From Candidatus Limnocylindrales bacterium (GTDB lineage: Bacteria; Chloroflexota; Limnocylindria; Limnocylindrales; CSP1-4), in NCBI GenBank assembly GCA_050010635.1, contig JBEKKR010000014.1, forward strand, positions 2,876-66,875: DNA of 64,000 bases, read 5' to 3'. Below, one piece after another: positions 48,021 to 64,000 of this stretch. A program made the position numbers and the translations under genes. Every line of letters begins with the position of its first letter. Position 1 is the stretch's first letter. The notes below the pieces were generated by a model that worked only from the letters and a program-made list of their open reading frames with translations, was not told the DNA's origin and did no database searches.

Positions 48021-49043
<1,023 letters not shown>

Positions 49044-49081
49044 CCGGCCGCCGTCTCGCACCCGACAACAAGGAGCACAAG

Positions 49082-49444: not shown

Positions 49445-50632
49445 GAAGGTCGACCTGGACCAGCGTCCCGGATAGGCCAGCCGTTACTGATTGGGCCCGC
49501 GAAGGTCCACACGATGGCTGCATTGCACTCGTCTCGACGGCGCCGAACGGGAGCCAGGGAGCCATTGGCGACAACGGATCGAGTCAGGCTTCTGCACATT
49601 CCGCCATACCGCCCGCGGGTTTGGTGGATAAGTACGGGAAACGGGCCGCCAGTTGGTGGACAAGTCCCTTGTGCGGATCACTTCGAACATTGATTCTAAA
49701 TCTTGCCCGAAGGGGCCGACATTCACTGTCGAACCGGACCAGGGAGCAATCTCCGGAACGGTACCGGGAGACCGGGCCGACGACCGCAAGGCTGCCGGCA
49801 ACGGATCCGGCGGCGGATCGACGATCACGAGCAATCGCGATTGCCGGTGCGCCAGTCGATGGACAGCCAGTTCCTTTGGGCGTTTTGCTGTCCGCCCCCC
49901 GGCCTTCGGGCGCCCCAATGGACCCGAGAGACAGTCCTTGTCGACGACTACGCTCACCTGACGCCACGGCTCGGCCGGCGACAGCGTGATGGTTCCGGCG
50001 GCTGGTACCTCGAAGGCGATCCCCGATTCGACGGAAGCCTGACAAGCCTCCTGCGATCGGGTCGAACGAGCCGGGTCTTGAGTTCTTGGCTCGGCACCAT
50101 CTGGTCGGAGGCTTTCGAGAGGATCCTCTCGACGGAACTCACACAGTCGGGATCTAGGCGAAGGATCCCCGATCAATGGCAGACCTGGACATCCGACGAG
50201 AGGACGCACTGGGTCGAGAAGAGCCTTCGCCCGGCTCGGGAGTCGGAGGCGGAGCGAAACCATGGGTCCCGTTCCTGAAGTCTCGGCCGCGTTTCGCCCC
50301 TTCCGCAGAGACTAACCGCGCATGGTGCCAGGAGTTACCTACGCCCGGGCCAGGACAGCTCCGCCCCGCCGGGAGGTCGAGTCGGTGCCTGCCCAAGGAG
50401 GTTGTCGGCCCTGACTTTCTCTGAAGTCGTCAAGGAACAACGCGCTCCCGGCTGAAAACGCCAGACCGGCGCCCCGCCCCAGGCACAAGTCCCGCCCTTG
50501 GGCCTGCCCCAAGATGTGGCTCGCATTGTGGCGGTCCGGCGGCGCGGCAGCGGCGTTCAGGGGTCGGTGCGGCCCGTCGCCACTTCGGCACCAATGGCCC
50601 TGACCCTTGCACCAGTGGCCGGCGGATACTGA

Positions 50633-52024
50633 ATGTCGTCTTCGGAAGATGCCGAGGCGCGGCCTGTGGACAAGAAGGATGCCATCATGAAAACCATCGT
50701 CGAGTCCCCCGATCTCGTCGTCGTAACCAGGTACACGCGCGGCGTGGTCGGGCCGAGCCTCGGGACCGCTGGGACTGTCAGAGACGGCGGACGGATCCGC
50801 ACCGTCACACCGCCCGGCTGCTGGGGCCCGATGATCACGCCCATCTTCGCCGGGGGTCACGAGGTCTCCTGGCCGGTGGCCGTCGAAGGCGCCAGGGTGG
50901 GCGACGCTATTGCCATCAGCATCGACAAGGTCGAGGTCCGTTCCCGCGCGACCAGCTCGGGAACAATGACCACCAATCCGGCCGCGTTCGGGAGCGACCC
51001 ATTCGTCGACCACAAGTGCCCCGGGTGTGGCACGCTCTGGCCGGAGACCCGCCTCGAGGGCACGGGTCCCGACGCCGTGCGGTGCGCGAGCTGCGGCGCC
51101 GAGTGCAGCCCGTTCAAGTTCGACGAGGGATACACGATCGCGTTCGACGACGACCGGGTCATGGGCCTGACAGTCGACGAGCGGGTCGCCCACGCGTTCG
51201 CGCTCGACGCTCGCGAGGTCGCTGGCCTGCCCGAGGGCAGCGAACAGCACCCGATCCTCGTGTATGAACCCCACACTATCCCCGGCACTCTCTCGCGACT
51301 GCGCTCGTTCATCGGCAACATCGGCACGATACCGTCGAAAGACATGCCCGACTCCCACAACGCCGGCGACTTTGGGTCGTTCCTCGTCGGGGCCTCTCAC
51401 AAGTTCGCTATGACCGCGGATGAGCTCAAGGAGCATCGCACCGACGGTCACCTCGATTGCGACTCGGTGCGCGCCGGGGCCATCCTCGTGGTCCCGGTCA
51501 AGGTGGACGGCGGCGGGATCTACATCGGTGACTCTCACGCCAACGAGGGCGACGGGGAGCTCGCGCTGCACACGACCGACATTACGGCGGAAGTCGAAGT
51601 GAGGGTGGACGTGCTGAAGGGCGTACACCTCGAGGGGCCGGTCCTGCTGCCGGTCGCCGAAGACCTGCCCTGGATCGCCCGGCCGTTCACGACCAGCGAG
51701 ATCGAGCGGGGGCGCAAACTCGGTGAGCACCACGGCGTGCAGGTCCAGGCGGGCGTCGCCCCGGTCCAGTTCATCGGCTCTGGTCCCACCATCAACGATG
51801 CCGCCGACAACGCCATCGCGAGAGCGGCGACACTGCTTGGCATCAGCCAGGCAGAGGTTCGCAACCGCTGCACGATCAGCGGTAACGTCGAGATTGCTCG
51901 GCTGCCGGGGGTGGTGCAGCTCACGATGCTGGCCCCTCTCGACCTGCTCGACCGCGCCGGCCTCGGTGACCTGGCGCGGAGGCAGTACGGTTCTAACCCC
52001 TTGCCGAAGACGCCGAGGCAGTGA
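50633..52024 (+). CDS. Acetamidase/formamidase (FmdA_AmdA) family protein
   Basis: 463 aa with a Cys-rich zinc-ribbon-like insertion (CPGCG...CASCGAEC) and conserved FmdA blocks (GPVAVEGARVGDAIAISI, GGGIYIGDSHANEGDGEL). An alternative start is ATG at 50687 (MKTIVESP). Confidence 0.8.
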   Translation: MSSSEDAEARPVDKKDAIMKTIVESPDLVVVTRYTRGVVGPSLGTAGTVRDGGRIRTVTPPGCWGPMITPIFAGGHEVSWPVAVEGARVGDAIAISIDKVEVRSRATSSGTMTTNPAAFGSDPFVDHKCPGCGTLWPETRLEGTGPDAVRCASCGAECSPFKFDEGYTIAFDDDRVMGLTVDERVAHAFALDAREVAGLPEGSEQHPILVYEPHTIPGTLSRLRSFIGNIGTIPSKDMPDSHNAGDFGSFLVGASHKFAMTADELKEHRTDGHLDCDSVRAGAILVVPVKVDGGGIYIGDSHANEGDGELALHTTDITAEVEVRVDVLKGVHLEGPVLLPVAEDLPWIARPFTTSEIERGRKLGEHHGVQVQAGVAPVQFIGSGPTINDAADNAIARAATLLGISQAEVRNRCTISGNVEIARLPGVVQLTMLAPLDLLDRAGLGDLARRQYGSNPLPKTPRQ

Positions 52025-52066
52025 GTAAGGCGAGCGGGCCAACCTTCCCCGCGCCGCTACCGATCG

Positions 52067-52180
52067 TCATGAATGGAGGCGCCAGCCCGACCTAGCTCGG
52101 ATCGCCTCGGTCTTGGTGTCGCCGGCGGCCAGGCGTGTGGCAACGTAAGCCTGCCCGAGCCGGGTAATTCGGCGCAGATT
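52067..52180 (-). mobile_element. Short 3' remnant of an IS110-family transposase gene
   Basis: Encodes ...NNLRRITRLGQAYVATRLAAGDTKTEAIRA... This is ~90% nucleotide identity over ~65 nt to the 3' end of the partial IS110 transposase at 61040-61110. Confidence 0.6.
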
Positions 52181-52202
52181 GTTGACCGACGCCGTCGCCG
52201 CC

Positions 52203-52634
52203 TCAGGCGTTCGCGAAGCGCAGTCGCTCGGCCGCGCCTGGATCGTGGGCCGGAAGGATGACCAGGCCCGGATTGCGCTCCTCGAGCTGCCGGACCAATG
52301 CCGACGCCCGATGAAGCTCGGCCTTATCCCCAACGCCGGGAATCCGGCCCGCCTCGAGCAGCTGCGACTCGTAGGTCAGGTCGCCGACAAGCAGCAAAGG
52401 CACCCTGCCAGGACGCCGGACCAGGAGGGACATCGAACCGGGTGTGTGTCCCGGAGTAGGTAGAAGGACCAGCGACCCATCGCCCATGACGTCATACGCC
52501 GCCGTGAAGGGAGCGAGGGCCGGATCATCCGTAGGTGTGAACTTGATCTGGCGATAGCGTGCTCCGGGCAAGTCGATGTGGCGACGTGCCGAAGGCGAAC
52601 CCCACGGCGGATGCAGCGTCGGCTGCCGCGCCAT
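52203..52634 (-). pseudogene. MBL-fold metallo-hydrolase, C-terminal fragment (lacks the HxHxDH motif)
   Basis: Contains the distal motifs only (LLPTPGHTPGS, LLVGDL, ILPAHDP). Its 5' end abuts the start of the plus-strand MBL gene with no intergenic space. Confidence 0.5.
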
Positions 52635-52636
52635 AA

Positions 52637-53268
52637 TGCCGGCGATGCAAATTGCCGCCGGCGTCTACAAGGTCGATGGCCTGAGAGCGGCCAATGTCTA
52701 CCTGGTGGCGATCGATGATGGCCTCCTCCTGGTCGATACCGGCATGCCTGGGAACGCTAAGCGGATCCTGGCCTACATCGAGAGCACCGGCGGTCACGCG
52801 GCCGACCTGCGCTACATCGTCCTTACGCACTCCGACATGGACCACATCGGCAGTGTCGCGCGGCTCAAGGAGCTGACGGGCGCCAAGGTCGCCATCCACG
52901 AACTCGACGGGCCTGTCCTCGCGGGGCGGCGGCGGGCCCAGAAGGGCGGGCCTCTGATGGCCGTGTTCGGTCGGCTGTTCAGGATTCGGCACATGGCGCC
53001 AGACCTGCTCCTCAAGGATGGGGATGTTGTCGGTGGCCTGACGGTCATTCACGTGCCGGGTCACACCGCCGGGAGCATCGTCTTGGTCCGCGAGGACGGC
53101 GTGGTGTTCTCCGGAGATGCGCTGATCAGCAACAACGCTGGGCAGGTCCGCCCGCCCAGGCCGCGTCTTGCGCTCGATCCAGCTCAGGCGCAGGCCTCCG
53201 CCGAGCGGATCAAGGCGCTGCCGACGAAGCTGCTCTGCACGGGCCACGGGGCGCCGGTCCGTTTCTAG
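52637..53268 (+). CDS. MBL-fold metallo-hydrolase
   Basis: LLVDTG...IVLTHSDMDHIG (HxHxDH)...HVPGHTAGS...FSGDAL...CTGHG. Confidence 0.8.
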
Positions 53269-53505
53269 CCGGCGCCGCTGGCCGAGCATCTGACCAGGAG
53301 CGCTATTCACTCATGGTGTAGCGGACACCCGCATGCTTTACGCTCAGTACTCCGCCAGACTCGGCTGTCCACTGTCTGGGACAATGTCGTCGCTCGGCGT
53401 GCTCGCTCGACGAGTCGACGGGGATCGGCCAGATCCCCGGTCCGGCCGGCCGCGCCCGGCTGCAGGGCAGCCCCGTCGCTTGTCTCTGGCCGGCTCTTCT
53501 AGGAC

Positions 53506-54078
53506 GTGAGGATGGCAATGGATCTGCTTCAGGCGATTTCCGGACGGCGATCGGTTCGCGACTACACCAGCCAGCGGCCAGACGACTCGATCATCGCCCG
53601 GTTGCTGACCGCTGCCGTGAACGCTCCCAGCGCTCGCAACGGTCAGCCATGGCGCTTCACAGTCGTACGGGACCCCGAACTGCTCGATCGCCTTTCGACC
53701 GAGGCTAAGACATACCAGCTGGCCACACTGCCGGCCGGGCATGGCAATGAGGAGCGACGGGCCAGAATGGCCGACCCGGCCAACCATCTGCTGCAACACG
53801 CCCCCGCATTGGTCCTCATCTCGGCCGTCGAGTCTTCGACCTGGGCAGTGGAGGATTGCGCCCTTGCCGCCCAGAACCTGATGCTCGCGGGCTGGAGCCT
53901 GGGTCTCGGCAGCTGCTGGATCGGCAATGTCCAGTTCTACCTCAACACCCCCGAGGGCAAGCGGCTCCTCGGCCTGCCTGAAGGATGCGTGCCGGTAGCC
54001 CCGATCATCGTCGGCTACCCTGCGAGCCAGCCTGTCCCAGTCCCGCGCAACGAGCCCGTTGTCAGCTGGATTGGTTAG
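53506..54078 (+). CDS. Nitroreductase family protein
   Basis: ISGRRSVRDY...AAVNAPSARNGQPWRFTVV...CWIGNVQF. FMN-dependent nitroreductase fold. Confidence 0.85.
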   Translation: MRMAMDLLQAISGRRSVRDYTSQRPDDSIIARLLTAAVNAPSARNGQPWRFTVVRDPELLDRLSTEAKTYQLATLPAGHGNEERRARMADPANHLLQHAPALVLISAVESSTWAVEDCALAAQNLMLAGWSLGLGSCWIGNVQFYLNTPEGKRLLGLPEGCVPVAPIIVGYPASQPVPVPRNEPVVSWIG

Positions 54079-54146
54079 AGGAGGCGTTCGTCTCCGCTGC
54101 TCGCAGACCGCGACGACTCGGCCCGAGCGCCCACGCTCAGGGTCCT

Positions 54147-55470
54147 GACGCTATGAAACTCTATGAAAGGGAGCCCGCGGTCAAGCTGGGCACCTCGCGT
54201 GTGATTTCAGCCCAGGCCGGCCTCACGGCCCGGCGGACTGATCAACGAATCGAGCAGCGCTCATCTCTCTATGGCCTTCTCTCGTTGGCGAAGGACCAGG
54301 TCAGGTGGGAGGCTGCGCCGGCGGCCCAATTCCATTAGGGGGTCGTCACGCGACCAGTTTCATAGCGGGGCCTGCCGGGGCAAAGGGTTCGTTCTTTGTG
54401 AGGACGTGCCAGATGGCTTCGGCCAGCTGGCGGGCGATATCGACACGGGCAACCTTGGCGCCACGCTGGCGGCCGAGGCGGCGCTTGTTCCGCTCGTAGC
54501 GATCGCGATAGCGCGGATCGCGGGCGGCGTGGGTGGCGGCCTCGATGAGCGCCCAGCGCAGGTACTTCGGGCCATTCTTGGCGAGCGGCCCACGGACGTC
54601 CCGGTTGCCAGACTGGCGCACGAGCGGGCACAGTCCGGTGTATCCGGTGAGCTTCTTAGGACTGGCGAACCGAGCAATGTCGCCGATCTCGGAGGAGATC
54701 GTGTAGGCGAGCAGCGGACCCACGCCGGGTACCGTCAGCAACAGCGGGACGTATGGGTGGTCTGCACCGAGCCGGGCGATCTCTCGACCGCACTCATCGA
54801 TGCGCTCGTCGAGCTCGTCGACCATGGCCAGGCTCGTGGCCAGGGTGGTTGCCCAGGGCTCGGACAGCTCGAGGCCCGCGAGTAGTTGACGGCCAGCGGT
54901 CCCGAACAGGTCGGCCACCGGGACCGGGTGGCCAAAGCTCATGAGCGTGGCATGGATGCGACACTTCAACGCGCTCCGGTGGCGGACCAGATGGATTCGG
55001 AAGCGGGCCCGCTCGCGCTCCGCGCGGACGCCTGGTGTGGGCAGCCAGATCTCGGGCACGAGGTCGCGGCGGGCCAGTTCGGCCAGCACGTGAGCGTCGA
55101 TCTTGTCGGTCTTGGCGGCGAGCGGCGCCAGACCCTTGGCCTTCACCGGATCTGCAATAGCGACGTCCCAGCCCCACCGCTCAAGGGTGTCGTGGACGAA
55201 CCGCGCGCCAGTCATGGACTCTATGGCCGCGGTAACCTCCTCGCGGTGGAGTAGGACGTGCCCTGCGAGGCTGCGCAGGGCGTCCGCGTCTGGGTGAATG
55301 GCTAGGACCTCGACCGTTCGCCCTTCTTCATCGAGCACGTGCACATCGAGCCTCTGGCGCGACAGGTCCAATCCGGCGTACAACATGGCTGGAGCCTCCT
55401 CGGTGCTGGTTGCTTTGACAACCCAACCTTGTCACCGGTGGGGCTCCCTTTCATGGAATTCCATAGGGTC
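54147..55470 (-). mobile_element. Intact IS110-family insertion sequence (~1.32 kb) bounded by 30-bp imperfect terminal inverted repeats
   Basis: Left end GACGCTATGAAACTCTATGAAAGGGAGCCC (54147-54176). The reverse complement of the right end (55441-55470) is GACCCTATGGAATTCCATGAAAGGGAGCCC, a 26/30 match. It encloses the transposase ORF. Confidence 0.8.
54346..55386 (-). CDS. IS110-family transposase (DEDD catalytic domain plus Transposase_20 C-domain)
   Basis: MLYAGLDLSRQRLDVHVLDEEGR... N-terminal DEDD motif region. C-terminal YTGLCPLVRQSGNRDVRGPLAKNGPKYLRWALIEAA, typical of the IS110 family. Confidence 0.9.
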   Translation of the reverse strand: MLYAGLDLSRQRLDVHVLDEEGRTVEVLAIHPDADALRSLAGHVLLHREEVTAAIESMTGARFVHDTLERWGWDVAIADPVKAKGLAPLAAKTDKIDAHVLAELARRDLVPEIWLPTPGVRAERERARFRIHLVRHRSALKCRIHATLMSFGHPVPVADLFGTAGRQLLAGLELSEPWATTLATSLAMVDELDERIDECGREIARLGADHPYVPLLLTVPGVGPLLAYTISSEIGDIARFASPKKLTGYTGLCPLVRQSGNRDVRGPLAKNGPKYLRWALIEAATHAARDPRYRDRYERNKRRLGRQRGAKVARVDIARQLAEAIWHVLTKNEPFAPAGPAMKLVA

Positions 55471-55563
55471 GGAGCCGGAAAACGGCCAAGCACGTGGAAA
55501 TGGGGTTTCCATCCTCGTTCCGGCGGGTGCGGACAAGCAGGCTGTGGACGAAAGAAGGTCCCC

Positions 55564-55635
55564 ATGGAACTCCTACTCGTCATCATCATTCTGATTCTGC
55601 TGTTCGGCGGCGGCTTCAGCTTCTACCGTCGCTGA
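55564..55635 (+). CDS. Candidate 23-aa hydrophobic micro-protein (MELLLVIIILILLFGGGFSFYRR), DUF3309-like composition
   Basis: AGAAGG Shine-Dalgarno 5 nt upstream of the ATG. GC3-rich codons. Poly-Leu/Ile helix then GGGF, resembling half of the ~50-aa DUF3309 small membrane proteins. Lies ~95 bp outside the IS right end. Confidence 0.35.
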   Translation: MELLLVIIILILLFGGGFSFYRR

Positions 55636-55876
55636 GGATCGGGCATCTGAGGGCGGCCGATCCCTCAGGCTGAACGAGACCGCGTCCCGAGTGCGAGGGC
55701 GCGGTCTTGCTGCAGCGTGGGGTGCCATGCCTCTGACTATGCTCAACAGTCTGTTCGCCGGGTTCGTGGCAGTCAGGGACGACGATTCTTCTTCAGATTC
55801 CTGGTCCGGCAGCTGGTCGGACGCGACTTCAAACGCGCCCGAACAACGACGCCACGGTTCTCACGACCACTAGCAC

Positions 55877-56182
55877 GTGATCCGCACATTCATCGCCCGC
55901 GTACCTGAAGGAGATCCCGTGACCAACGACAGTGCTACCAGTCCGGGCACCCCGGACGCCGTCGACATCGTCACCGACCCGACGGGGGACGCGCGGCTCA
56001 ACGAAGACTCAATCGGGGCCAATGTCGGACCATTGCCGCCCATCGATGCCGTGCCCGGCGGCCCGTCAAACGAGAATGGAGCGATAGACGGCCTGCCCGG
56101 CCGCTACGAGCGCCAGGATGAAGAGGACGCCGCAGCAGGGTTGGATATGACCCGAGCTCCACTCGTCGCGAGCAATGGGTAG
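55877..56182 (+). CDS. Hypothetical acidic protein
   Basis: 101-aa Asp/Glu/Pro/Gly-rich ORF with good GC3. No family recognised. Confidence 0.35.
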   Translation: MIRTFIARVPEGDPVTNDSATSPGTPDAVDIVTDPTGDARLNEDSIGANVGPLPPIDAVPGGPSNENGAIDGLPGRYERQDEEDAAAGLDMTRAPLVASNG

Positions 56183-56366
56183 CGAGCGTCCGCAAATCAT
56201 CGTCGTCCGCCAGGGCGGCGACCATGGCTGCCTCATCACGATTCTTCTCCTGATCGTGGCGTGGCCGCTGGCCATCGTCTATTGGATCCTGCGGTTGATG
56301 GCTTGGGGCGTTGGCGCCATGGTTGACTGGCTGACCCTCGGGCCGGCCCGACGCCGCCGACGCTGA
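56175..56366 (+). CDS. Small membrane protein (possibly PLDc_N-like)
   Basis: 63 aa: hydrophobic helix ILLLIVAWPLAIVYWILRL, then a poly-Arg C-terminus. Weak resemblance to small PLD-nuclease-N-terminal-domain membrane proteins. Confidence 0.35.
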   Translation: MGSERPQIIVVRQGGDHGCLITILLLIVAWPLAIVYWILRLMAWGVGAMVDWLTLGPARRRRR

Positions 56367-56491
56367 GCGCTTGGGCGTGTGCCTCGCACGCAGGCAGTAG
56401 AGCCTGTCGTGCTCCGCGGGCCAGGGTCTCGCGACCACGTACTTGGCGCTGCGGACGGCTAGCCTAGAGTAGAGAGGGGAGGAGGTCTGGC

Positions 56492-57844
56492 TTGCCCGAA
56501 CGGAACCCATCGACCAGAGCTGCCGAGCCGCGGGTGCACTCCGACCGGCCCGTAGATCCCAAGGCAGTCGAGCTTCGGGCCGAGAAGAATCCACTGAGGC
56601 GCCTCGGCAAAGCCCTTGGTCCGGGCCTGATCACCGGGGCATCAGACGACGATCCTTCGGGCATCGGGACCTATGCCCAGGCCGGCGCGCAGTACGGCTT
56701 TGCCACGCTCTGGACGACTATCGCGATGCTGCCGATGCAGACGGCCGTCCAGTACATGTGCGCCAAGATCGGCCTGGTGACCGGCAAAGGTCTGGCGGGC
56801 GTGCTGCGCGAGCATTACCACCGGGCCCTCTATCCGGCAGTCATCGGTCTGGTCATTGCCAACACCTTGAATGCCGGCGCCGATATCGGTGCGATAGCCG
56901 CGGCCATGAACCTGCTCGTGCCGCCGATCGAGACCATCGTCTTCGTCGTGCCCGTCGGCCTCGGGATAATCGCCCTCCAGGTCTTCGGCAGCTATCGCCT
57001 CATCGAGAAGGTCTTCAAGTGGCTTTCTCTGGCCCTGCTCGCTTACATCGGGGCAGCCCTGTTCGCGCGGCCCGACGTCGTAAAGGTCCTGATCGGATCG
57101 CTGGTTCCCACGATCTCGTTTGACCCGAAATACATAGGAATCGTCGTCGCGCTCCTGGGCACCACCATCTCGCCCTACCTCTTCTTCTGGCAGGCCAGCC
57201 AGGAAGTGGAGGAGCAGATCAGCATCGGGCGGCGCACCCTCCGACACCGCCAGGGGGCCACTCGGTTCGAGCTCAAATACGCACGGTGGGACACGATTGC
57301 GGGGATGGTCTTCTCGGAGATCGTGGCCTACTTCATCATCCTCACCACCGGCGCCACTCTGTTCGTGGCGGGCAAGCATGATGTCGCCTCAGCAACCGAT
57401 GCCGCGCAGGCTTTGCGTCCCCTGGCCGGCGACGCGTCCGCCCTCCTGCTTGCCATCGGGCTCATCGGAGCCGGCGTCCTGGCAGTGCCTGTCCTCACGG
57501 GTTCGGCGGCCTACGGCGTGTCCGAGGCATTCGGCTGGCGATCCGGCCTCGATCACAAGCTCACTCGGGCGCCGCAGTTCTACCTTGTTATCGTCGCGGC
57601 GACGCTTGTCGGGATGGCCATCAACTTCCTGGGGATCAATCCCATCACGGCCCTTGTACTGAGCGCCGTCTTGAACGGCCTGATCGCCGTGCCGCTCGTC
57701 TTCCTACTGATGATCGTCTGCAACGATCGCGCGGCGATGGGCGATCGGACCAACGGTCGTCTTCTGAATGTCATCGGTTGGGTCACGACGATAGCCATGG
57801 GCGTGGCGGCCGTCGGCCTGATCTTGACGACGGTATTCGGCTAG
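56492..57844 (+). CDS. NRAMP (SLC11)-family transporter with non-canonical metal-site motifs (NRMT/Nramp-related type)
   Basis: 11-12 TM, GPGLITGASDDDPSGIGTYAQAGAQYGF (DPSG where MntH has DPGN) and TISPYLFFWQ (SPY where MntH has MPH). TTG start with a GGAGGAGG RBS. Confidence 0.75.
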   Translation: MPERNPSTRAAEPRVHSDRPVDPKAVELRAEKNPLRRLGKALGPGLITGASDDDPSGIGTYAQAGAQYGFATLWTTIAMLPMQTAVQYMCAKIGLVTGKGLAGVLREHYHRALYPAVIGLVIANTLNAGADIGAIAAAMNLLVPPIETIVFVVPVGLGIIALQVFGSYRLIEKVFKWLSLALLAYIGAALFARPDVVKVLIGSLVPTISFDPKYIGIVVALLGTTISPYLFFWQASQEVEEQISIGRRTLRHRQGATRFELKYARWDTIAGMVFSEIVAYFIILTTGATLFVAGKHDVASATDAAQALRPLAGDASALLLAIGLIGAGVLAVPVLTGSAAYGVSEAFGWRSGLDHKLTRAPQFYLVIVAATLVGMAINFLGINPITALVLSAVLNGLIAVPLVFLLMIVCNDRAAMGDRTNGRLLNVIGWVTTIAMGVAAVGLILTTVFG

Positions 57845-57880
57845 ACGGCAAGCGGTCCGAGGAGTGGGCGCCAGCATCGA

Positions 57881-58618
57881 TCAGCGGACGGCGGTCCCGA
57901 GCAAGGCGCCGATCCCATAGGTCGTGGCGGCCGCCAGAAGCCCCAACGCCGCTTGCCGAAGACCGGACCGAACTGGCTGGCGGTGAGTGAGTCGACTCAC
58001 GCCCAGCCCGACAAGGAACAGCGCGGCCAGCGTCGCGGCGATGGTCAGCGCAAAGGCCGTGGCTCCGGACAGAAGCAGGAAAGGCGCCAGGGGCACGGAG
58101 GCACCGAGCGCGAAAGCAAGCAGCGAGCCCGCCGCGGCAGCGATTGGGGAGCCCATCGTCTTAGCAGAGAGACCGATCTCATCGCGTACGAAGGTGTCGA
58201 GCGCTCGCTTCGGTTTGGCCAGGAGGCGATCCACGATGAAGTTCGCGTCGCCTCGCGACAGACCTCTCGACTCGTAGATCTCCACCAGGATGGCTCGCTC
58301 CTGGTCGGGCGTATGACGAAGCTGCTGGCGCTGAAGCTCGACCTGGTAGTCGAGGAGCTCGTGCTGCGAACGCACCGAGATGTACTCACCCACGGCCATG
58401 CTGAAGCTCCCCGCCATGAGACCAGCGATGCCGGCCAGGATGACGGTATGGGCGTCACCGGACGACGCACCGGCGACGCCCATGATCAGGCTCACGTTGG
58501 CCACGAGGCCGTCGGTTGCTCCAAACACGGAAGGGCGAAGGACGCTCGAACCGCGCGTCTCGTGGGGACTCGTCGGGGCCGCGAGCAGGGGCCGCAATCC
58601 GGACCGAACGGCACGCAC
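57881..58618 (-). CDS. VIT1/CCC1-family iron/manganese transporter
   Basis: FGATDGLVANVSLIMGVAG...SMAVGEYISVRSQ plus a C-terminal helical bundle. VIT family signature. Confidence 0.85.
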   Translation of the reverse strand: MRAVRSGLRPLLAAPTSPHETRGSSVLRPSVFGATDGLVANVSLIMGVAGASSGDAHTVILAGIAGLMAGSFSMAVGEYISVRSQHELLDYQVELQRQQLRHTPDQERAILVEIYESRGLSRGDANFIVDRLLAKPKRALDTFVRDEIGLSAKTMGSPIAAAAGSLLAFALGASVPLAPFLLLSGATAFALTIAATLAALFLVGLGVSRLTHRQPVRSGLRQAALGLLAAATTYGIGALLGTAVR

Positions 58619-58674
58619 TACGGCTCGAGACGCTGGGGCCCTTGTCAGCGGGATAGTCCACGCTGACCCGTGCG

Positions 58675-59028
58675 CTACTTCCGGGTGCTCCAGTGGTCGG
58701 CCGCCTCTCGCTCCAGGACCGCCAGGCGAGTGTAGTAGTCCGAAAACTCATTCAGGTGGGCGAGCGCGATCTTCCCGGTGGTGATCGAATCGTCTCCGGT
58801 GACGTCGGTCTTAGGGCTTCGCAGCCCGTGCTCGAGCTCGACGTCCAGCCCCTTCCGGAACTGCTCGAGGTCGTACTTCAGCGCCTCGAAGTCCATCCCG
58901 AGTTTAGTCGCGACGGCGAGCGCCTCTTCGCGCGTGAACGATTTCTTTACGGCAGTCGCAGCAGTTCCCACAGCGATCTCCTTCGGCCGATACTTCGTGC
59001 AGACCATCCGTAAGTCATTAATCTTCAT
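58675..59028 (-). CDS. Hypothetical protein (lower-GC gene)
   Basis: 117-aa charged ORF (MKINDLRMVCTKYRPKEIAVGTAATAVKKSF...). GC is visibly lower than the surroundings. Confidence 0.5.
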   Translation of the reverse strand: MKINDLRMVCTKYRPKEIAVGTAATAVKKSFTREEALAVATKLGMDFEALKYDLEQFRKGLDVELEHGLRSPKTDVTGDDSITTGKIALAHLNEFSDYYTRLAVLEREAADHWSTRK

Positions 59029-59057
59029 GCCGTTGCATCAGTCTGGGCTGTATCTGG

Positions 59058-59087
59058 TGCCGGCCACGAGGATGAGAACCCTCCAGC
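59058..59087. repeat. Copy A of a ~30-45-bp direct repeat (TGCCGGCCACGAGGATGAGAACCCTCC)
   Basis: Copy B is at 60452-60481 (TGCCGGCCGCGAGGATGAGAACCCTCC), 1 mismatch in 27 nt. Flanking similarity extends ~15 nt upstream with an indel. Confidence 0.7.
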
Positions 59088-59247
59088 GCGGAAGCTCGCT
59101 GGCGGACCAAACGCTATGGCTCAATCGAGACGACGGCGCGTGCGGGAGGTCGCAGCCCCGTCGCTAGTTGAGGGTTTCGGTTGCGGCCGCCCTAACGGCC
59201 ACGCTTGTCAGGTTTCTGCCGCGCTGAGACCAACTACGCGTTCAGCC

Positions 59248-59634
59248 CTACCGGCGGTGAACCAGGCCCTGATTGCCCCGCTTGCGCGATGCGATCGCGA
59301 TACCCGCCACGAGCGCAGGAGACAGCGCCGCGAGGGTGATAAGACGTGGAGCACCGGCCATCCACAGCCCAGCCCCAACGCCCATGGAGAATGCCATCAG
59401 CAGTTTGAGCCTTGGATCGGACAACTCCTGGAGCATCTTCACTGACTCGGCGGCTCCTTCGGCACCTGCCGACGCGATGCCGGGCAGGCGGGTCCCGACC
59501 TCGTCGGCGACGATGCGGGCACCCGCAACCGCGGCGGCCGCGCCCTCCTGCGCCTTGGACGCTAAATCGGCGGCGGCGTCGATAACGGTCGCGGACATAT
59601 CGCTGCCCACATGACGGGCCTCGGTAGCATTCAT
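59248..59634 (-). CDS. Hypothetical Ala-rich protein
   Basis: 128-aa ORF with an amphipathic Ala-rich N-half and a hydrophobic C-half (LLMAFSMGVGAGLWMAGAPRLITLAALSPALVAGIAIA). Uncertain. Confidence 0.4.
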   Translation of the reverse strand: MNATEARHVGSDMSATVIDAAADLASKAQEGAAAAVAGARIVADEVGTRLPGIASAGAEGAAESVKMLQELSDPRLKLLMAFSMGVGAGLWMAGAPRLITLAALSPALVAGIAIASRKRGNQGLVHRR

Positions 59635-59834
59635 CGTTTGCGCCTCCCGGCGAAATCGGGGACTTGCCGAAGCCCTGCTGCCTCGGCCTGATGCGTGGCC
59701 ATAGAGCCCGAGCCTCCGCGTGCCAGGGCTACGGCTCAGGAGCGCTTGTCGCCGACGTACTCGTCGGAATGGTGCAAGCCCTCCGCATCCGCGGTTGGCG
59801 GTCGGATGCAGAGTGGTTCCGTCGGATCGAACTC

Positions 59835-60098
59835 CTAGACCTGGGCGTTGCGCTGGCCCATGAGCAGCCGGTAGGCCGCGACCACGACGACGCCACCGAT
59901 CACAGCGACGACGATGCTCTCGACATTGACGCCGGTCACGTCAGCGACTCCCAGGACCGTGCCGGCGAGGTAGCCGCCGACGACAGCCCCGACGATGCCC
60001 AGAATGATCGTGGCAATGACGCCTTCCGAGCCGCCCATGATCAGGTTCGTAATGAAGCCGGCGATGGCCCCGAGGACGATCCAAGCGATGATGCCCAT
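59835..60098 (-). CDS. GlsB/YeaQ/YmgE-family stress-response membrane protein (transglycosylase-associated protein family)
   Basis: MGIIAWIVLGAIAGFITNLIMGG...IILGIVGAVVGGYL..., the classic ~85-aa family. Confidence 0.8.
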   Translation of the reverse strand: MGIIAWIVLGAIAGFITNLIMGGSEGVIATIILGIVGAVVGGYLAGTVLGVADVTGVNVESIVVAVIGGVVVVAAYRLLMGQRNAQV

Positions 60099-60195
60099 AG
60101 TGGCAATTCCTTTCGTGGGACGCGGATTGGGGACGAAAGGCGAACAACCCTCGTCCTCCGCGTGAGCTCTAGAGGATGCGCGCCATCCGCATTAG

Positions 60196-60378
60196 TCAGC
60201 GGCTCGACGGCCGTCGGGTGGCGTCTTGAAGATCGCCCAAGCCCTGCTGGGCGCTGCCTTGAACCTGCTTAACCTTGCCCTTGGCTTCCTCGTGCCTGTC
60301 GCCCGTCAACTTACCAAGCCCTTCCTGGACCTGGCCTTTGGCCTTGTTGATGGCGCCCTTGGCGCGCAAGTCGGTCAT
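60196..60378 (-). CDS. CsbD-family general stress protein
   Basis: MTDLRAKGAINKAKGQVQEGLGKLTGDRHEEAKGKVKQVQG... CsbD repeat pattern. Confidence 0.8.
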   Translation of the reverse strand: MTDLRAKGAINKAKGQVQEGLGKLTGDRHEEAKGKVKQVQGSAQQGLGDLQDATRRPSSR

Positions 60379-60417
60379 TTCAGTTGTCCTCTAACAACGT
60401 TTGACTAGCGTTCAGGC

Positions 60418-61218
60418 GTGAATCCTGATGTCCTTCTGTCATCGTGGTCTGGACGGATGCCGGCCGCGAGGATGAGAACCCTCCCGCGTTGTCGGCCGCG
60501 CGAATCCGTTGGCCGAGTTGCTCGACTCGATGGCAGCGAACGCGAGCTCCATCTGCTCGTCGATTATCGGGACGTTCTGATCTCAGATCGAACTGGCCAC
60601 CAGTCTCGCCTACGCTGGTTCCTCGTGGAACTCGGCATTCCAGAGCCCCCAGCGCGCAGGCTCACGGTGCCGGTCGTGCTCGCGGGGATCGACCTCCGAC
60701 TCGCCGGCCGGCTCGAGCCGTGCGCTCGTATCGCCCGAGACCTCGTGGCCCGTATCTCAGAGATGACTCAGGCGATCGATGACCTTGCGCGGCAGATCGG
60801 CGAGCTGACCGAGACGCTCGCGCCGAACCTGATGGGCCTGTTTGGATGTGGTTCGCTAACCGCCGCCAAGCTCGTCGCCGAGACCGCTGGCATCGGTCGC
60901 TTCCGCTCTCGTGCGGCCTATGCATCTCATACCGGGACGGCCCCGATACCAGTCTGGTCGGGCAACGTCGTCCGTCATCGGCTCAGCCGTGGCGGCAACC
61001 GTCAGCTCAACGCCGCCCTACACCGTATCGCCATCACCCAACTCCGATGCCCCAGCCTGGGGCAGGCCTACGTTGCCAAACGCCTCGCCGCCGGCGACAC
61101 CAAGACCGAGGCCATCCGGGCTCTTCGTCGACGACTCAGCGACGAGGTCTTCCGCCGACTACAAGCGGACGAGGCTGCCCGAATCAGCGTCGAGGGAGTG
61201 ACTCGAGCCGCTGCTTGA
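60418..61218 (+). pseudogene. IS110-family transposase, 5'-truncated (lacks the N-terminal DEDD domain)
   Basis: Aligns to the C-terminal two-thirds of IS110 transposases (GSLTAAKLVAETAGIGRF...YASHTGTAPIPVWSGN...GNRQLNAALHRIAITQLR...YVAKRLAAGDTKTEAIRALRRRL). No GIDxSK-type N-terminus is present. Confidence 0.75.
60452..60481. repeat. Copy B of the direct repeat, immediately upstream of the 5'-truncated IS110 transposase
   Basis: See the feature at 59058-59087. Confidence 0.7.
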
Positions 61219-61551
61219 CACAGGAGCAATTGATCGTCGCCGAGGTGAGCCACGAGAGAGTGACCGCGGACCGAGTCTCGAGCGGGACGTTCTGCGCGCT
61301 GCCGGCGAACCGCACAGTAGCTTGGCATCGGCCCCTCACCATCGCCCAGATCTGATGGCGCACCCTCGCTTGAGCCGGGAAGATCGACACATGAGAACCC
61401 AGACGTGCGTCGGAACTTACGCACCTGGCGCCATCGCGACAGCCTTCGACTTGCACCTGGGCAGCGGCCCACGCTCGGGATCCCGAGCGGCATCCGAAGC
61501 CTAAGGACCTGCGGGCGGCCAACGGAAGTCGGGTAGTACGGGCACCGCCCA

Positions 61552-62771: not shown

Positions 62772-63353
62772 GTGCGTTTCGGCATGTTCGAACGTGTACG
62801 GTTCGACGTGATGCCTTTCGACTTGACCGCACCCAAGGCAACCCCCACCGCAGACGGCCAGTCTCTGTCACGCGCCGCGAGTGTGTCCGACATCCAGGCC
62901 GGCGCATTCGAGGCGGCGTACGCGGCCGCGTGGCTGCCGGTCTTTCGGTTCGCCCTAGCCTGGACGAACGATTGGTCGGCCGCCGAAGACCTGGCGCAGG
63001 AAGCGTTCCTCCGACTCTGGGATCGGCGGGCCGAAGTCGACTGGTCATTGCCGGTCCTACCGTGGCTGCTAGTCACGACCCGCCGTACCGCGACGGATCG
63101 CTTCCGCCGCCTGCGGCGGGCGCTCACGATGCGCGGACCAGCCGAGGTCGCCCCAGGATCTGACGCCCGCCTCGAGTGGCTCGACATTCGGGCCAGCTTC
63201 CGAACGCTCTCGGCTCTTGAGCGTTCGGCCCTGGTACTCACAGCGCTTGAAGACCTCGACGCCGCTGCGGCCGGGGCGATTCTTGGCATCGGGGCGAACG
63301 CTGTACGGTCCGCGGCAAGCCGCGGACGCAGGAAGCTGAAGGACCAACGATGA
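62772..63353 (+). CDS. ECF-family RNA polymerase sigma-70 factor
   Basis: Region 2 (AEDLAQEAFLRLW) and region 4 (LSALERSALVLTALEDLDAAAAGAILGIGANAVRSAASRGRRKL). Start uncertain. Confidence 0.85.
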   Translation: MRFGMFERVRFDVMPFDLTAPKATPTADGQSLSRAASVSDIQAGAFEAAYAAAWLPVFRFALAWTNDWSAAEDLAQEAFLRLWDRRAEVDWSLPVLPWLLVTTRRTATDRFRRLRRALTMRGPAEVAPGSDARLEWLDIRASFRTLSALERSALVLTALEDLDAAAAGAILGIGANAVRSAASRGRRKLKDQR

Positions 63354-64000
63354 ACGAGCATCGAGATGGTTCCGTTCACGCCGATGAGGACGCGCTGCTG
63401 CGTCGCTGGCACGCCGCTTCGTCGCGGTCGCAACCGATCCCGTTGGCCGAGCTGCTCACCGGGAGTCGATCGAGGGGCGGAGGTCGTCGGACCTTCCGGA
63501 AGGTGGCAATAGCCGCTGTCGCGACAGCTGTCGTTATCGGCGGTATCGCCGGCGTCGGGGCTTGGACCAGCCTCCGCTCGCTCTCTGGGTCGAGCAGCTC
63601 TCCGAGTGCCACGGCCCCACCGGGCACACCCTCGCCCGTTCCCACCCAATCGACAGAGCCTCAGTCGTCGCGCCCAACCTCGGAGATCTTGCCGGGACCG
63701 GACCTGGCCCAGCACGAGGCCATCATCCAGATGCATTCGACGCTGGGCGGCGGTTGGCTTCTGACAGGATCAAGGCTCCTCACCATCACCGGCAGACCCG
63801 GCTGGCACGACTGCTGGCGATCGCCCGCCGGCGACGTTACGAGTCCGTATCTCCACGCCGTCGTCGCCGGCGACGTCATCCTTGTCGTCCGCCTCATCTC
63901 CAAGACCACGATGTGGACGAGCATCGACGGATGTGCCAGCTGGGCCGCGAGCGTCCTGCCCATCGCACCGACGGGCGTGGCGTTCCCGACCGAGAGCACC
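63350..64000 (+). CDS. Putative anti-sigma factor, single-TM membrane protein (3' end beyond window)
   Basis: The ATG overlaps the sigma factor stop (ATGA). Cytoplasmic N-domain, then the TM segment VAIAAVATAVVIGGIAGVGAW, then a Ser/Pro-rich extracytoplasmic region. Confidence 0.5.
   Translation, partial: MNEHRDGSVHADEDALLRRWHAASSRSQPIPLAELLTGSRSRGGGRRTFRKVAIAAVATAVVIGGIAGVGAWTSLRSLSGSSSSPSATAPPGTPSPVPTQSTEPQSSRPTSEILPGPDLAQHEAIIQMHSTLGGGWLLTGSRLLTITGRPGWHDCWRSPAGDVTSPYLHAVVAGDVILVVRLISKTTMWTSIDGCASWAASVLPIAPTGVAFPTEST

What the first reader, a model, noticed from the sequence alone, without database searches (positions are those of the whole stretch)
52025..61300. IS110-studded ~9-kb accessory islet carrying metal transporters, redox enzymes and general-stress genes
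Three IS110-family elements or remnants occur within 9 kb: a short 3' remnant (52067..52180, minus strand), an intact IS (54147..55470) and a 5'-truncated copy (60418..61218, plus strand). The outer two share ~90% nucleotide identity in their 3' ends and are inversely oriented, flanking the segment. The enclosed genes (MBL hydrolases including a truncated duplicate, nitroreductase, atypical NRAMP, VIT1, CsbD, YmgE-like, small membrane proteins) are accessory-type, and several have lower GC than the surroundings. This looks like a decayed composite-transposon-like or recombination-hotspot islet, probably acquired horizontally.
Basis: partly seen in the sequence, partly recalled or inferred. Interest (0 to 1): 0.5.

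Follow-up and report, generated by a model that had tools for sequence, protein, structure and literature searches.

The report
Stress-gene cluster hit by insertion sequences
This 9-kb stretch is a native stress and metal-transport gene cluster of an uncultured peat Chloroflexota bacterium that was hit separately by small RNA-guided jumping genes, not a transposon-borne imported island, so it is largely ordinary.

Summary
The three IS110-superfamily pieces are real, but they do not form one mobile unit.

- **IS-A (54160-55461):** an intact 1302-bp IS1111-type element. A 99.7%-identical metagenome contig lacks it and shows the empty site.
- **IS-B remnant (60518-61230):** the 3' 713 bp of a 1262-bp IS110-type element. 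The same contig carries it intact. Here a 613-bp deletion removed its left end, non-coding region and DEDD domain.
- **Relic (52094-52164):** a 71-nt internal transposase fragment with no IS end.

IS-A and IS-B transposases are only 29% identical.

The cargo genes (NRAMP, VIT1, DUF5661, CsbD, Transgly_assoc and small ORFs) recur together, in shuffled order and without IS110 elements, in related contigs; the named close hits are Candidatus Limnocylindrales MAGs. Three cargo transcription units carry a conserved upstream box, GGGTTCTCATCCTC, that relatives share.

GC3 is lower in the segment (0.79 against 0.87), but it stays low past the right-hand IS.

Verdict: a lineage-native, rearrangement-prone stress and metal gene neighbourhood with independent IS insertions and decay. 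A composite transposon is not supported, and recent foreign acquisition is not shown. IS-A carries guide segments that co-vary with its target flanks, as the published seekRNA model predicts.

The parts
52094..52164 (-). 71-nt internal relic of an IS-B-like (IS110-type) transposase gene. It encodes LGQAYVATRLAAGDTKTEAIRA and has no IS terminus.
   Evidence: 89% complementary to 61052-61122 (I1). 22 aa at 95% identity. Similarity beyond 71 nt is weak and gapped. Slightly closer to the L127-type variant (61/65) than to the local copy (60/66).
52203..52634 (-). Truncated MBL-fold gene holding only the C-terminal half. Likely a pseudogene and not a copy of the neighbouring MBL.
   Evidence: Pfam Lactamase_B model positions 99-189 only, below the curated cut-off. 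BLASTP against the neighbour aligns only 13 of 26 residues around PGHTxGS.
52636..53268 (+). MBL-fold hydrolase, 210 aa from the MPAMQ start.
   Evidence: PF00753, E = 4e-33. JGI gene call of 210 aa.
53506..54078 (+). Nitroreductase. Its 5' part lies in a diverged tract (53482-53796) with 23 differences from L006.
   Evidence: PF00881, E = 8e-33. SNP cluster.
54149..54159 (+). Target half-site (CGCTATGAAAC) next to IS-A, part of the small palindrome CTATGAAAC|CATAG that IS-A split.
   Evidence: Empty site GACGCTATGAAAC|CATAGGGTCGG in L006. 11/11 complementary to guide 1 inside IS-A.
54160..55461 (-). IS-A, an intact 1302-bp IS1111-type insertion sequence. It has the subterminal inverted repeat ATGAAAGGGAGCCC, with 7 nt (GAATTCC) beyond it at the transposase 5' end and 3 nt (AGA) at the 3' end. 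There is no target duplication; 1 nt is ambiguous.
   Evidence: Absent from the 99.7%-identical contig L006. Inverted repeat I2. Ends compared with six other copies. Family criteria from PMC11187229.
54346..55386 (-). IS-A DEDD transposase, 346 aa.
   Evidence: PF01548 and PF02371. Both domains match the IS621 and ISCro4 transposase structures (8wt6, 9t56).
54160..54367 (-). IS-A 3' non-coding region (186 nt) plus the last transposase codons, the presumed seekRNA region. Guide 1 runs 54367..54357 (CGCTATGAAAC). Guide 2 runs 54338..54328 (CTAATGGAATT). A donor-like segment runs 54274..54264 (CCATAGAGAGA).
   Evidence: The 11-nt complement to the flank is reached by 1 of 3000 shuffles. Two 8-mers match the joined IS ends, p = 0.0005. 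The guide 5-mers co-vary with the flanks in three natural variants.
55503..55516 (+). Upstream box (GGGTTTCCATCCTC) 61 nt before a 23-aa membrane peptide gene (55564-55635). It may drive the unit peptide-orf101-orf63-NRAMP.
   Evidence: One mismatch to the box. Near-identical arrangement in L145.
55877..56366 (+). orf101 and orf63, overlapping small ORFs with no Pfam match. They are conserved directly upstream of NRAMP in relatives.
   Evidence: No Pfam family. tblastn hits next to NRAMP in L056 and L065.
56492..57844 (+). NRAMP-family divalent metal transporter.
   Evidence: PF01566, E = 1e-86. More than 120 homologue clusters at 82-92% identity.
57881..58618 (-). VIT1-family iron/manganese transporter, probably co-transcribed with DUF5661.
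   Evidence: PF01988, E = 2e-64. Adjacent to NRAMP in L048 and L051, in the opposite relative orientation.
58675..59028 (-). DUF5661 protein. The real start is probably the GVG-context GTG a few codons in, preceded by GAAGGAG.
   Evidence: PF18905. Homologues next to NRAMP in L050, L060, L085 and L145. Upstream sequence.
59068..59081 (-). Upstream box GGGTTCTCATCCTC, followed about 22 nt later by CAGACT, preceding DUF5661.
   Evidence: (D3). Expected 0.04 matches by chance against 2 observed.
59248..60378 (-). The CsbD (60196-60378), Transgly_assoc (59835-60098) and orf128 (59248-59634) unit. The same order is kept in L145 and L147.
   Evidence: PF05532 and PF04226. Synteny at 75-92% aa identity in L145 and L147.
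60468..60481 (-). Upstream box GGGTTCTCATCCTC, 103 nt before CsbD. It lies outside IS-B and 36 nt from the deletion junction.
   Evidence: Also upstream of CsbD in L050 and L145.
60518..61230 (+). IS-B remnant, the 3' 713 bp of a 1262-bp IS110-type element. The left end, the 203-nt upstream non-coding region and transposase codons 1-115 (the DEDD domain) are deleted, together with 64 bp of flank.
   Evidence: L006 carries the intact element (L006 18649-19910, 348-aa transposase). Ends defined against L127 and L133 copies. Only PF02371 remains.

Best explanation
The segment is a lineage-native, rearrangement-prone cluster of stress and metal-homeostasis genes in an uncultured peatland Candidatus Limnocylindrales (Chloroflexota) population.

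**The cargo.** At least three of its transcription units sit behind a shared upstream box, GGGTTCTCATCCTC, followed about 22 nt later by a TANNNT-like hexamer. They are:
- the small membrane peptide, orf101, orf63 and NRAMP;
- DUF5661 and VIT1;
- CsbD, Transgly_assoc and orf128.

The box is most likely a promoter or operator of one regulon. The operon groupings and this function are inferred.

**The insertion sequences.** The cluster was hit independently by elements of two different families.
- IS-A is an intact IS1111-type element that inserted recently into a small intergenic palindrome. It is still polymorphic in the population (shown).
- IS-B is an IS110-type element that inserted upstream of the CsbD promoter. 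In this haplotype a 613-bp deletion killed it (shown).
- A 71-nt relic marks an older IS-B-like insertion that has almost entirely decayed (inferred).

**How they move.** Each IS moves alone. A DEDD recombinase is guided by an RNA made from the element's own non-coding region. This is inferred from family membership. For IS-A it is also supported by guide segments that complement its own flank and co-vary with the flanks of related copies.

**What follows.** The ISs are passengers, not the vehicle of the cargo genes. None of them interrupts a gene or a box.
For: **IS-A**
- The empty site and exact ends come from contig L006.
- It meets the IS1111 criteria given in PMC11187229: a subterminal repeat with 7 and 3 nt beyond it, a 186-nt non-coding region downstream of the transposase against 75 nt upstream, and no target duplication.
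- The transposase matches the IS621 and ISCro4 structures in both domains.
- Guide 1 complements the adjacent flank 11/11; 1 of 3000 shuffles reaches this.
- The aligned guide 5-mers track the right flank in three variants: GAAAC/GTTTC, CCTGC/GCAGG and CAAAC/GTTTG. Guide 2 tracks the left junction.

**IS-B**
- It is intact in L006 and 613 bp shorter here.
- Its ends were set against copies in two other contexts.
- IS-A and IS-B transposases share only 29% identity.

**Cargo is native**
- NRAMP has more than 120 clusters at 82-92% identity. The two top hits that carry an organism name are Chloroflexota MAGs, one of them Candidatus Limnocylindrales.
- NRAMP recurs with VIT1, DUF5661, Transgly_assoc, CsbD, orf101/orf63 and orf128 in shuffled order. 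No IS110 hit occurs in 80 or more related loci.
- Cupin_2 and DUF2255, which lie in the window's left flank, sit 8.5 kb from NRAMP in L148 and L149.

**The box**
- Three copies with at most 1 mismatch occur in the window, all in the segment.
- The same box precedes CsbD and DUF5661 homologues in L048, L050 and L060, and about nine small genes in the 21-kb L145.
- No RNA covariation was found.
Against: - The segment does deviate in composition: GC3 of 0.79 against 0.87, and the highest tetranucleotide distance in the window. That fits acquisition from a somewhat different genome.
- The related contigs are mostly unlabelled metagenome fragments. Their assignment to the same lineage rests on identity levels and a few named MAG proteins.
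- No syntenic relative was found that would show the ancestral state of the whole segment. FmdA has different neighbours in all six related species.
- Metagenome assemblies break at repeats, so IS elements next to the relatives' clusters may be under-seen. L145 does carry an rve-type IS next to its CsbD unit.
- The box has no experimental support, and its role as promoter or operator is inferred.
- Guide 2 and the donor-like segment of IS-A were assigned by sequence only. One variant (L133) does not fit its present flanks.
Confidence: 0.75

Rival explanations
1. The 52-61.3 kb block is a decayed composite transposon: two inverted IS-B copies once mobilised the enclosed cargo as a unit and brought it in horizontally.
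For: - Two IS-B-like pieces in inverted orientation flank the block (I1).
- GC3 is lower inside.
- The left edge also holds a truncated gene.
Against: - The left piece is a 71-nt internal fragment with no end. It is marginally closer to another IS-B subtype than to the right copy.
- Per PMC11187229, IS110- and IS1111-type elements transpose as single circles and require their own non-coding region and their flanks. In that paper's model the two ends of one element are joined into a circle; two inverted copies would not offer such a pair (my inference).
- Low GC3 continues beyond the right IS.
- The cargo genes cluster without IS110 elements in relatives.
- In L006 IS-B is a complete, self-contained 1262-bp insertion with its own target junctions.
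Confidence: 0.05
2. The block, or a larger region reaching past 64 kb, is a genomic islet acquired by recombination from another Limnocylindrales-like genome. The ISs are later passengers.
For: - There is a mild but significant compositional shift from about 52 kb to the window end.
- FmdA shows no synteny with its neighbours in six related species.
- A 315-bp tract with 7% divergence beside IS-A shows that recombination with diverged DNA happens here.
- Gene fragments occur in and near the region: the MBL remnant, and an ABC-2 permease fragment at 44076-44525.
Against: - No integrase, tRNA or direct repeats mark the edges. The only tRNA lies at 18.3 kb.
- All strain-level contigs, from five or more samples, carry the block.
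- Loose linkage of NRAMP to Cupin_2 and DUF2255 is kept across species.
- Homologous stress genes in L050 also have lowish GC3 (0.78-0.84), so part of the shift may be a property of the gene families.
Confidence: 0.15
3. Homologous recombination between two inverted IS-B copies inverted the block. This would explain why VIT1 and the CsbD unit face the opposite way to NRAMP compared with relatives.
For: - The IS-B-like pieces are inverted relative to each other.
- VIT1 is co-directional with NRAMP in L048 and L051. CsbD-Transgly_assoc-orf128 is co-directional with NRAMP in L145. Here both are convergent or opposite.
Against: - An inversion between 52.1 and 60.5 kb would flip NRAMP together with VIT1 and CsbD, so it cannot change their relative orientation.
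- Relatives show many different orders, for example L050 and L086, so no single inversion accounts for the pattern.
- Only 71 nt of homology survive.
Confidence: 0.05

Closest known systems
IS1111-family insertion sequences (ISEc11, ISPa11, ISKpn4, IS4321/IS5075) with a seekRNA
   Same: For IS-A:
- A DEDD and Transposase_20 recombinase.
- A subterminal inverted repeat with 7 nt and 3 nt beyond it.
- The long non-coding region lies downstream of the transposase.
- No target duplication.
- Insertion into a short specific, palindromic site.
- A segment complementary to the top strand lies 5' of a segment matching the top strand.
- Natural reprogramming among relatives.
   Different: - The host is an uncultured Chloroflexota lineage.
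- The element was not compared with ISfinder entries, so its identity to named ISs is unknown.
- Guide 1 overlaps the last codons of the transposase gene rather than lying wholly in the non-coding region.
- The RNA itself has not been observed.
IS110-type elements with an upstream bridge RNA or seekRNA (IS621, ISEc21)
   Same: For IS-B, as seen intact in L006:
- A 203-nt non-coding region upstream of a 348-aa transposase with PF01548 and PF02371.
- The right end lies 12 nt after the stop codon.
- No terminal inverted repeats.
- A shared AT at both junctions.
- A variable patch in the non-coding region matches the right junction in two variants.
   Different: - In this window the element is dead: the left end, the non-coding region and the DEDD domain are deleted.
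- The guide assignment is tentative and fails for the L133 variant.
- No Rfam family matches.
Composite transposons such as Tn5 and Tn10
   Same: IS-related sequences in inverted orientation lie on either side of accessory-looking genes.
   Different: - One arm is a 71-nt internal fragment, and the other lacks an end and its catalytic domain.
- The IS family is not known to mobilise flanked DNA through two copies.
- No target duplication flanks the unit.
General-stress regulon clusters, for example the sigma-B-controlled csbD and ymgE/yeaQ-type genes of Firmicutes
   Same: - Small stress proteins (CsbD, Transgly_assoc/YmgE-like, small membrane peptides) are grouped together.
- Each is preceded by a common oriented upstream motif.
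   Different: - By my recollection the motif (GGGTTCTCATCCTC, then about 22 nt, then a TANNNT-like hexamer) matches no promoter consensus I know, including sigma-B GTTT-N-GGGTAT and EcfG GGAAC-N-CGTT.
- The regulator is unknown.
- The cluster also includes metal transporters.

Membership tests
IS110 superfamily (ISfinder sense), IS-A | DEDD (RuvC-like) N-terminal domain plus a Transposase_20 C-terminal domain | tested here: met
   PF01548 (E = 3e-18) and PF02371 (E = 2e-23). Both domains align to the IS621 transposase 8wt6 and to ISCro4 9t56.
IS1111 family, IS-A | Subterminal inverted repeats with about 7 bp beyond the repeat on the left and 3 bp on the right | tested here: met
   GAATTCC|ATGAAAGGGAGCCC ... 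GGGCTCCCTTTCAT|AGA, with ends fixed by the empty site. Criterion from PMC11187229.
IS1111 family, IS-A | The longer non-coding region lies downstream of the transposase gene | tested here: met
   186 nt downstream against 75 nt upstream.
IS1111 family, IS-A | Site-specific insertion without a target duplication | tested here: met
   Comparing the filled site with the empty site leaves only 1 ambiguous nt. Related copies share the flank pattern ...NATG | G-N5-AT....
IS1111 family, IS-A | The seekRNA has a segment complementary to the top strand 5' of a segment complementary to the bottom strand of the target, and it is programmable | tested here: inconclusive
   - By sequence, an 11/11 complement to the right flank is followed 19 nt later by a same-sense match to the left junction.
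- Both co-vary across three or four variants.
- No RNA data exist.
- Guide 2 matches the left junction (flank plus IS end) better than the uninterrupted target.
- The L133 variant does not fit.
IS110 family proper, IS-B | An intact element with both ends, an upstream non-coding region and a full DEDD transposase | tested here: not met
   In the window only the 3' 713 bp remain, carrying PF02371 alone. The allele in L006 does meet the criterion.
Composite transposon | Two IS copies, each with at least one functional outer end and a source of transposase, bracket the cargo | tested here: not met
   The left piece is 71 nt with no end. The right piece lacks its left end and DEDD domain. IS-A is a different family.
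Composite transposon | A target-site duplication flanks the whole unit, or the unit is found at another locus | tested here: not met
   No direct repeat lies at 52.0 and 61.3 kb. Every contig that carries the exact FmdA or IS-A transposase sequence shows this same locus; other loci were not searched directly.
Horizontally acquired genomic island | Present or absent between close relatives, with defined borders (tRNA, integrase or direct repeats) | tested here: not met
   All strain-level contigs carry it. There is no integrase, adjacent tRNA or bordering repeat. Species-level relatives gave no usable synteny, so absence elsewhere could not be assessed.
Horizontally acquired genomic island | Atypical composition confined to the island | tested here: inconclusive
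   GC3 is 0.79 against 0.866 (p = 3e-4) and tetranucleotide z reaches 2.4. The right flank at 61.5-64 kb is equally low, and only 64 kb of the genome is available as background.

The most novel reading that the evidence does not exclude
The 14-nt box GGGTTCTCATCCTC, followed about 22 nt later by a TANNNT-like hexamer, is the signature of an undescribed stress and metal regulon of Limnocylindria. The 'islet' would then be that regulon's core cluster.
- The box sits upstream of CsbD, DUF5661-VIT1 and the small-peptide/NRAMP unit.
- A further candidate lies upstream of a PAS histidine kinase at 39.5 kb.
- About nine copies occur in a 21-kb stretch of a relative (L145).

Separately, the IS-A family offers a natural series of reprogrammed seekRNA guides, the first of which lies inside the transposase's last codons.
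Probability: 0.45. Interest if true: 0.4.

Novelty: new member of a known kind. Interest (0 to 1): 0.25.

Why it matters
**Practical value**
- A cluster of IS fragments around accessory-looking genes should not be read as a composite transposon without checking IS ends, family identity and population variants.
- Here one near-identical metagenome contig resolved all three events.

**Modest scientific value**
1. It documents active IS1111-type and IS110-type RNA-guided elements in an uncultured peat Chloroflexota lineage. Natural guide and target co-variation is visible directly in metagenomes, which could extend the catalogue of programmable recombinases.
2. It points to a conserved upstream motif that ties CsbD, DUF5661, VIT1, NRAMP and small membrane peptides into one probable regulon in Limnocylindria. 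Nothing is known experimentally about gene regulation in this group.

Tried and rejected
- **Rfam.** The gathering scan of the window found only tRNA-Asp. E-value scans of IS-A and of IS-B in L006 gave only chance-level hits. No curated bridge RNA or seekRNA family matched.
- **Box as an RNA element.** RNAalifold on 14 instances gave only a trivial 5-bp hairpin inside the box and no compensatory changes. I rejected this in favour of a DNA-level site.
- **Extending the relic.** Local alignment against the IS-B 3' end gave only a gapped, weak extension that overlaps the MBL remnant. I treated it as chance.
- **FmdA as a synteny anchor.** The genome-contig scan found six Limnocylindrales species with FmdA at 89-94% identity, but none shares a neighbour on either side. 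It says nothing about an empty site.
- **Exact-protein look-up of the ECF sigma factor** (start at 62772) found nothing. Look-up of the 327-aa ORF returned only short contigs reaching 2.3 kb past the window, so the low-GC3 zone could not be followed further.
- **More target-like sites in the window.** None was found for IS-A. One chance-level hit was found for IS-B.
- **First guide search.** Restricting it to the non-coding region after the stop codon gave only non-significant 6-mers to the target (p = 0.62). The real guide appeared only when the last transposase codons were included.
- **MBL duplicate idea** rejected.
- **Link between IS-A-like copies and the box.** An IS-A-like copy lies 600 nt upstream of another NRAMP in L159, but no box is there. 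I treated this as coincidence.
- **Box against promoter consensus.** I compared the box by eye with promoter consensus sequences recalled from memory and saw no match. This is not a test.

Full report
**1. Where the window comes from**

The window is high in G+C, at about 68%.
- Exact-protein look-ups place the region on several metagenome contigs from different samples that are at least 99.9% identical to it.
- A scan of species-representative genomes with the formamidase gene (FmdA, 50633-52024) returned Candidatus Limnocylindrales and 'Chloroflexi' MAGs from fen and peat (Stordalen, SPRUCE) as the closest relatives, at 89-94% aa identity.
- This order belongs to the class Candidatus Limnocylindria, phylum Chloroflexota.

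**2. Checking the observation**

- FmdA;
- a C-terminal MBL remnant (52203-52634, minus);
- an MBL hydrolase (52636-53268);
- a nitroreductase (53506-54078);
- an IS110-family transposase with both PF01548 and PF02371 (54346-55386, minus);
- Nramp (56492-57844);
- VIT1 (57881-58618, minus);
- DUF5661 (58675-59028, minus);
- Transgly_assoc (59835-60098, minus);
- CsbD (60196-60378, minus);
- a transposase fragment with only PF02371 (within ORF 60418-61218).

The repeat finder gives the 71-nt, 89% inverted match 52094-52164 / 61052-61122. It also gives the 30-nt inverted repeat at the edges of the middle IS. The three IS pieces are therefore real.

Two details are wrong.
- The middle transposase is only 29% identical to the right-hand one.
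- The MBL remnant is not a copy of its neighbour.

**3. One near-identical contig resolves the history**

Contig L006 (JGI 3300052918, 137 kb) is 99.65-99.98% identical across 40.6-62.7 kb but differs at two places.

*IS-A is absent from L006.*
- The empty site reads GACGCTATGAAAC|CATAGGGTCGG.
- This fixes IS-A at 54160-55461 (1302 bp, 1 nt ambiguous, no duplication).
- IS-A inserted in the centre of the small palindrome CTATGAAAC-CATAG.

*L006 carries a complete IS-B.*
- Its transposase is 348 aa with both domains.
- The window lacks L006 18585-19197, which is 613 bp.
- Copies of IS-B relatives in two other genomic contexts (L127-132 and L133-140) define the element as L006 18649-19910. That is 1262 bp, with a 203-nt upstream non-coding region, a right end 12 nt after the stop codon, and AT at both junctions.
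- The deletion therefore removed 64 bp of flank plus 549 bp of IS: the left end, the non-coding region and codons 1-115.
- Window 60518-61230 is what remains.

The L006 haplotype is ancestral at both sites. The window haplotype, also seen in L005 and L007, is derived.

The 71-nt relic corresponds to sequence 108-178 nt inside the IS-B right end and has no terminus. It is marginally closer to the L127-type variant than to the local copy. This suggests a separate, older insertion.

**4. What the ISs are and how they work**

*IS-A fits every structural criterion of the IS1111 family given by Siddiquee et al. 2024 (PMC11187229).*
- It has a subterminal inverted repeat (ATGAAAGGGAGCCC) with 7 nt beyond it at the transposase-proximal end and 3 nt at the other.
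- Its long non-coding region lies downstream of the transposase (186 nt against 75 nt).
- It makes no target duplication.
- Its transposase aligns in both domains to the IS621 and ISCro4 structures.

*I then collected other copies of the IS-A family.* These were L013, L136/L133, L150-158 and L159-168.
- Their junctions share the pattern ...NATG | [7 nt][repeat]...[repeat]AGA | G-N5-AT...
- Aligning the 3' regions shows a segment in the last codons of the transposase whose variable 5-mer is the reverse complement of the first bases of each copy's own right flank:

| Copy | Guide 5-mer | Right flank |
|---|---|---|
| window | GAAAC | GTTTC |
| L151 | CCTGC | GCAGG |
| L159 | CAAAC | GTTTG |

- In the window the match runs 11/11. 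CGCTATGAAAC on the minus strand at 54367..54357 pairs with the flank at 54149-54159. Only 1 of 3000 shuffles reaches this length.
- A second segment 19 nt downstream (54338..54328) has the same sense as the left junction and also tracks it: ATG|GAAT, CCTG|GAAT and TCG|AAT.
- Two further 8-mers match the joined IS ends (p = 0.0005).
- The order, complement to the top strand first and same-sense match second, is the published IS1111 rule.

I read this as good sequence-level support that IS-A is an RNA-guided element. The RNA itself has not been observed, and the L133 variant does not fit its present flanks.

*IS-B is IS110-type*, with an upstream non-coding region and no terminal repeat. A variable patch in that region matches the right junction in the L006 and L127 variants (my reading). 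This window has lost that region.

**5. Is the block an IS-borne or foreign islet?**

*Composition.*
- GC3 of the nine non-IS genes is 0.79 against 0.866 for 42 genes to the left (p = 3e-4).
- The three genes to the right of IS-B are equally low at 0.79.
- Tetranucleotide distance is highest at 53-61 kb but modest, at z = 2.4.

*Relatives.*
- FmdA's neighbours on both sides differ in all six related species. The left flank is therefore no stable 'core' border either.
- NRAMP has more than 120 homologue clusters at 82-92% identity. The two top hits that carry an organism name are Chloroflexota MAGs, one of them Candidatus Limnocylindrales.
- In related contigs NRAMP sits next to VIT1 (L048, L051), DUF5661 (L050, L060, L085, L145), Transgly_assoc (L050, L058, L060, L065, L086, L145), CsbD (L050, L086, L091, L145) and orf101-orf63 (L056, L065).
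- CsbD-Transgly_assoc-orf128 keeps its order in L145 and L147.
- The arrangements differ every time, and none of these loci has an IS110 hit.
- In L148 and L149, Cupin_2 and DUF2255 lie 8.5 kb from NRAMP. In the window they lie in the left flank.

*Mobility markers.* No integrase or other mobility gene occurs in the flanks. The only tRNA is at 18.3 kb.

Taken together, the cargo looks native to the lineage. It sits in a flexible, frequently rearranged neighbourhood. The ISs are later, independent passengers.

**6. A shared upstream box**

The 31-nt direct repeat found (D3; 59058-59088 and 60458-60488) lies outside IS-B. It sits upstream of DUF5661 and CsbD, in the same orientation as each gene.
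- Its core, GGGTTCTCATCCTC, occurs three times in the window with at most 1 mismatch, all within 55.5-60.5 kb.
- A fourth, weaker copy with the same downstream hexamer precedes a PAS histidine kinase at 39.5 kb.
- The same box, followed about 22 nt later by CAGACT, TAGAGT or TAGGCT, precedes CsbD and DUF5661 homologues and small membrane-protein genes in L048-L078. It precedes about nine genes in the 21-kb L145.
- The box is nearly invariant while the downstream sequence varies without compensatory changes.

I therefore read it as a promoter or operator, not an RNA structure. It suggests that most of the block consists of three co-regulated units. Both IS-A (42 nt upstream of one box) and the IS-B deletion (36 nt upstream of another) leave the boxes intact.

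**7. Verdict**

- The composite-transposon reading is not supported.
- The 'recombination-prone' reading is supported.
- Horizontal acquisition is not shown.

This is an ordinary situation: IS accumulation and decay in a flexible chromosomal neighbourhood. Two modest points of interest remain. One is a natural series of reprogrammed IS1111-type guides in an uncultured Chloroflexota lineage. The other is a candidate regulon motif.

Noticed in passing
window 59068-59081 (-), 60468-60481 (-), 55503-55516 (+), 39540-39553 (-); also L048, L049, L050, L051, L060, L065, L078, L145: A conserved oriented box, GGGTTCTCATCCTC, is followed about 22 nt later by a TANNNT-like hexamer (CAGACT, TAGAGT or TAGCCT). 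It lies 50-125 nt upstream of CsbD, DUF5661, small membrane peptides and a PAS histidine kinase. About nine copies occur in the 21-kb L145. It is probably a promoter or operator of a stress regulon, and it shows no RNA covariation.
   Followed up: partly
window 53482-53796: This 315-bp tract holds 23 of the 47 differences between the window and L006 over the 13.5-kb stretch 40633-54159 (about 7% divergence against about 0.2% elsewhere). It covers the nitroreductase start and lies 360-680 bp from the IS-A insertion. It looks like a recombination or gene-conversion tract, possibly linked to how the IS-A-bearing allele spread.
   Followed up: no
window 61231-61232, 61161, 61164: The window and L006 differ by TG against GC immediately outside the IS-B right end, and at two positions just inside it. 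The rest of the remnant is identical. The window's junction (CAAT|TGATC) resembles the L127-type junction. This may reflect conversion by another IS-B copy or an independent insertion.
   Followed up: no
L133-L139 (for example L133 940-3066): In another Limnocylindrales-like contig, an internally deleted IS-A-like element lies 27 nt upstream of an IS-B-like element, across the palindrome GTGACGGCCGTCAC. A sequence inside that IS-A-like non-coding region (GTCCACCATC) equals the left flank of the IS-B-like copy in L127. The two IS families may share or mimic each other's targets.
   Followed up: partly
L013 12972-13084 (SPRUCE_394 MAG): A 95%-identical IS-A copy lies 1.6 kb downstream of FmdA in a different species. 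It is at a different site, beyond an unannotated 423-aa ORF on the opposite strand, and in the opposite orientation to the window copy. The contig ends inside it.
   Followed up: partly
L159 and L160 (800 nt on each side of an IS-A-like copy): The two contigs share the IS-A-like right part and a downstream NRAMP paralogue. They have different left flanks and different 7-nt outer ends (GAATGTC against AATGGTG). This suggests recombination between two IS copies that joined different genomic contexts.
   Followed up: no
window 49445-50632: A 1.2-kb gap between the Cupin_2 gene and FmdA has no ORF supported by GC3 and no Pfam hit. Its SNP density against L006 is higher (5 in 1.2 kb). It may be a decayed gene or a regulatory region.
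   Followed up: partly
window 44076-44525: A 149-aa ORF matches only the C-terminal third of ABC-2 permease models (positions 235-346 of 347).
   Followed up: no
window 62772-64000: An ECF-type sigma factor (Sigma70_r2 and r4_2, with a weak PhyR_sigma-like hit) is followed by a 456-aa protein with faint BNR/Sortilin hits (seen in L141). They lie directly right of the cluster and are candidate regulators of the boxed genes.
   Followed up: no
L145 9493-9743 and 18422-19618: In the related 348-kb contig, a frameshifted Transgly_assoc pseudogene lies just upstream of NRAMP, and an rve-type (DDE) IS follows the CsbD unit. The homologous neighbourhood collects pseudogenes and ISs in another species too.
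   Followed up: no
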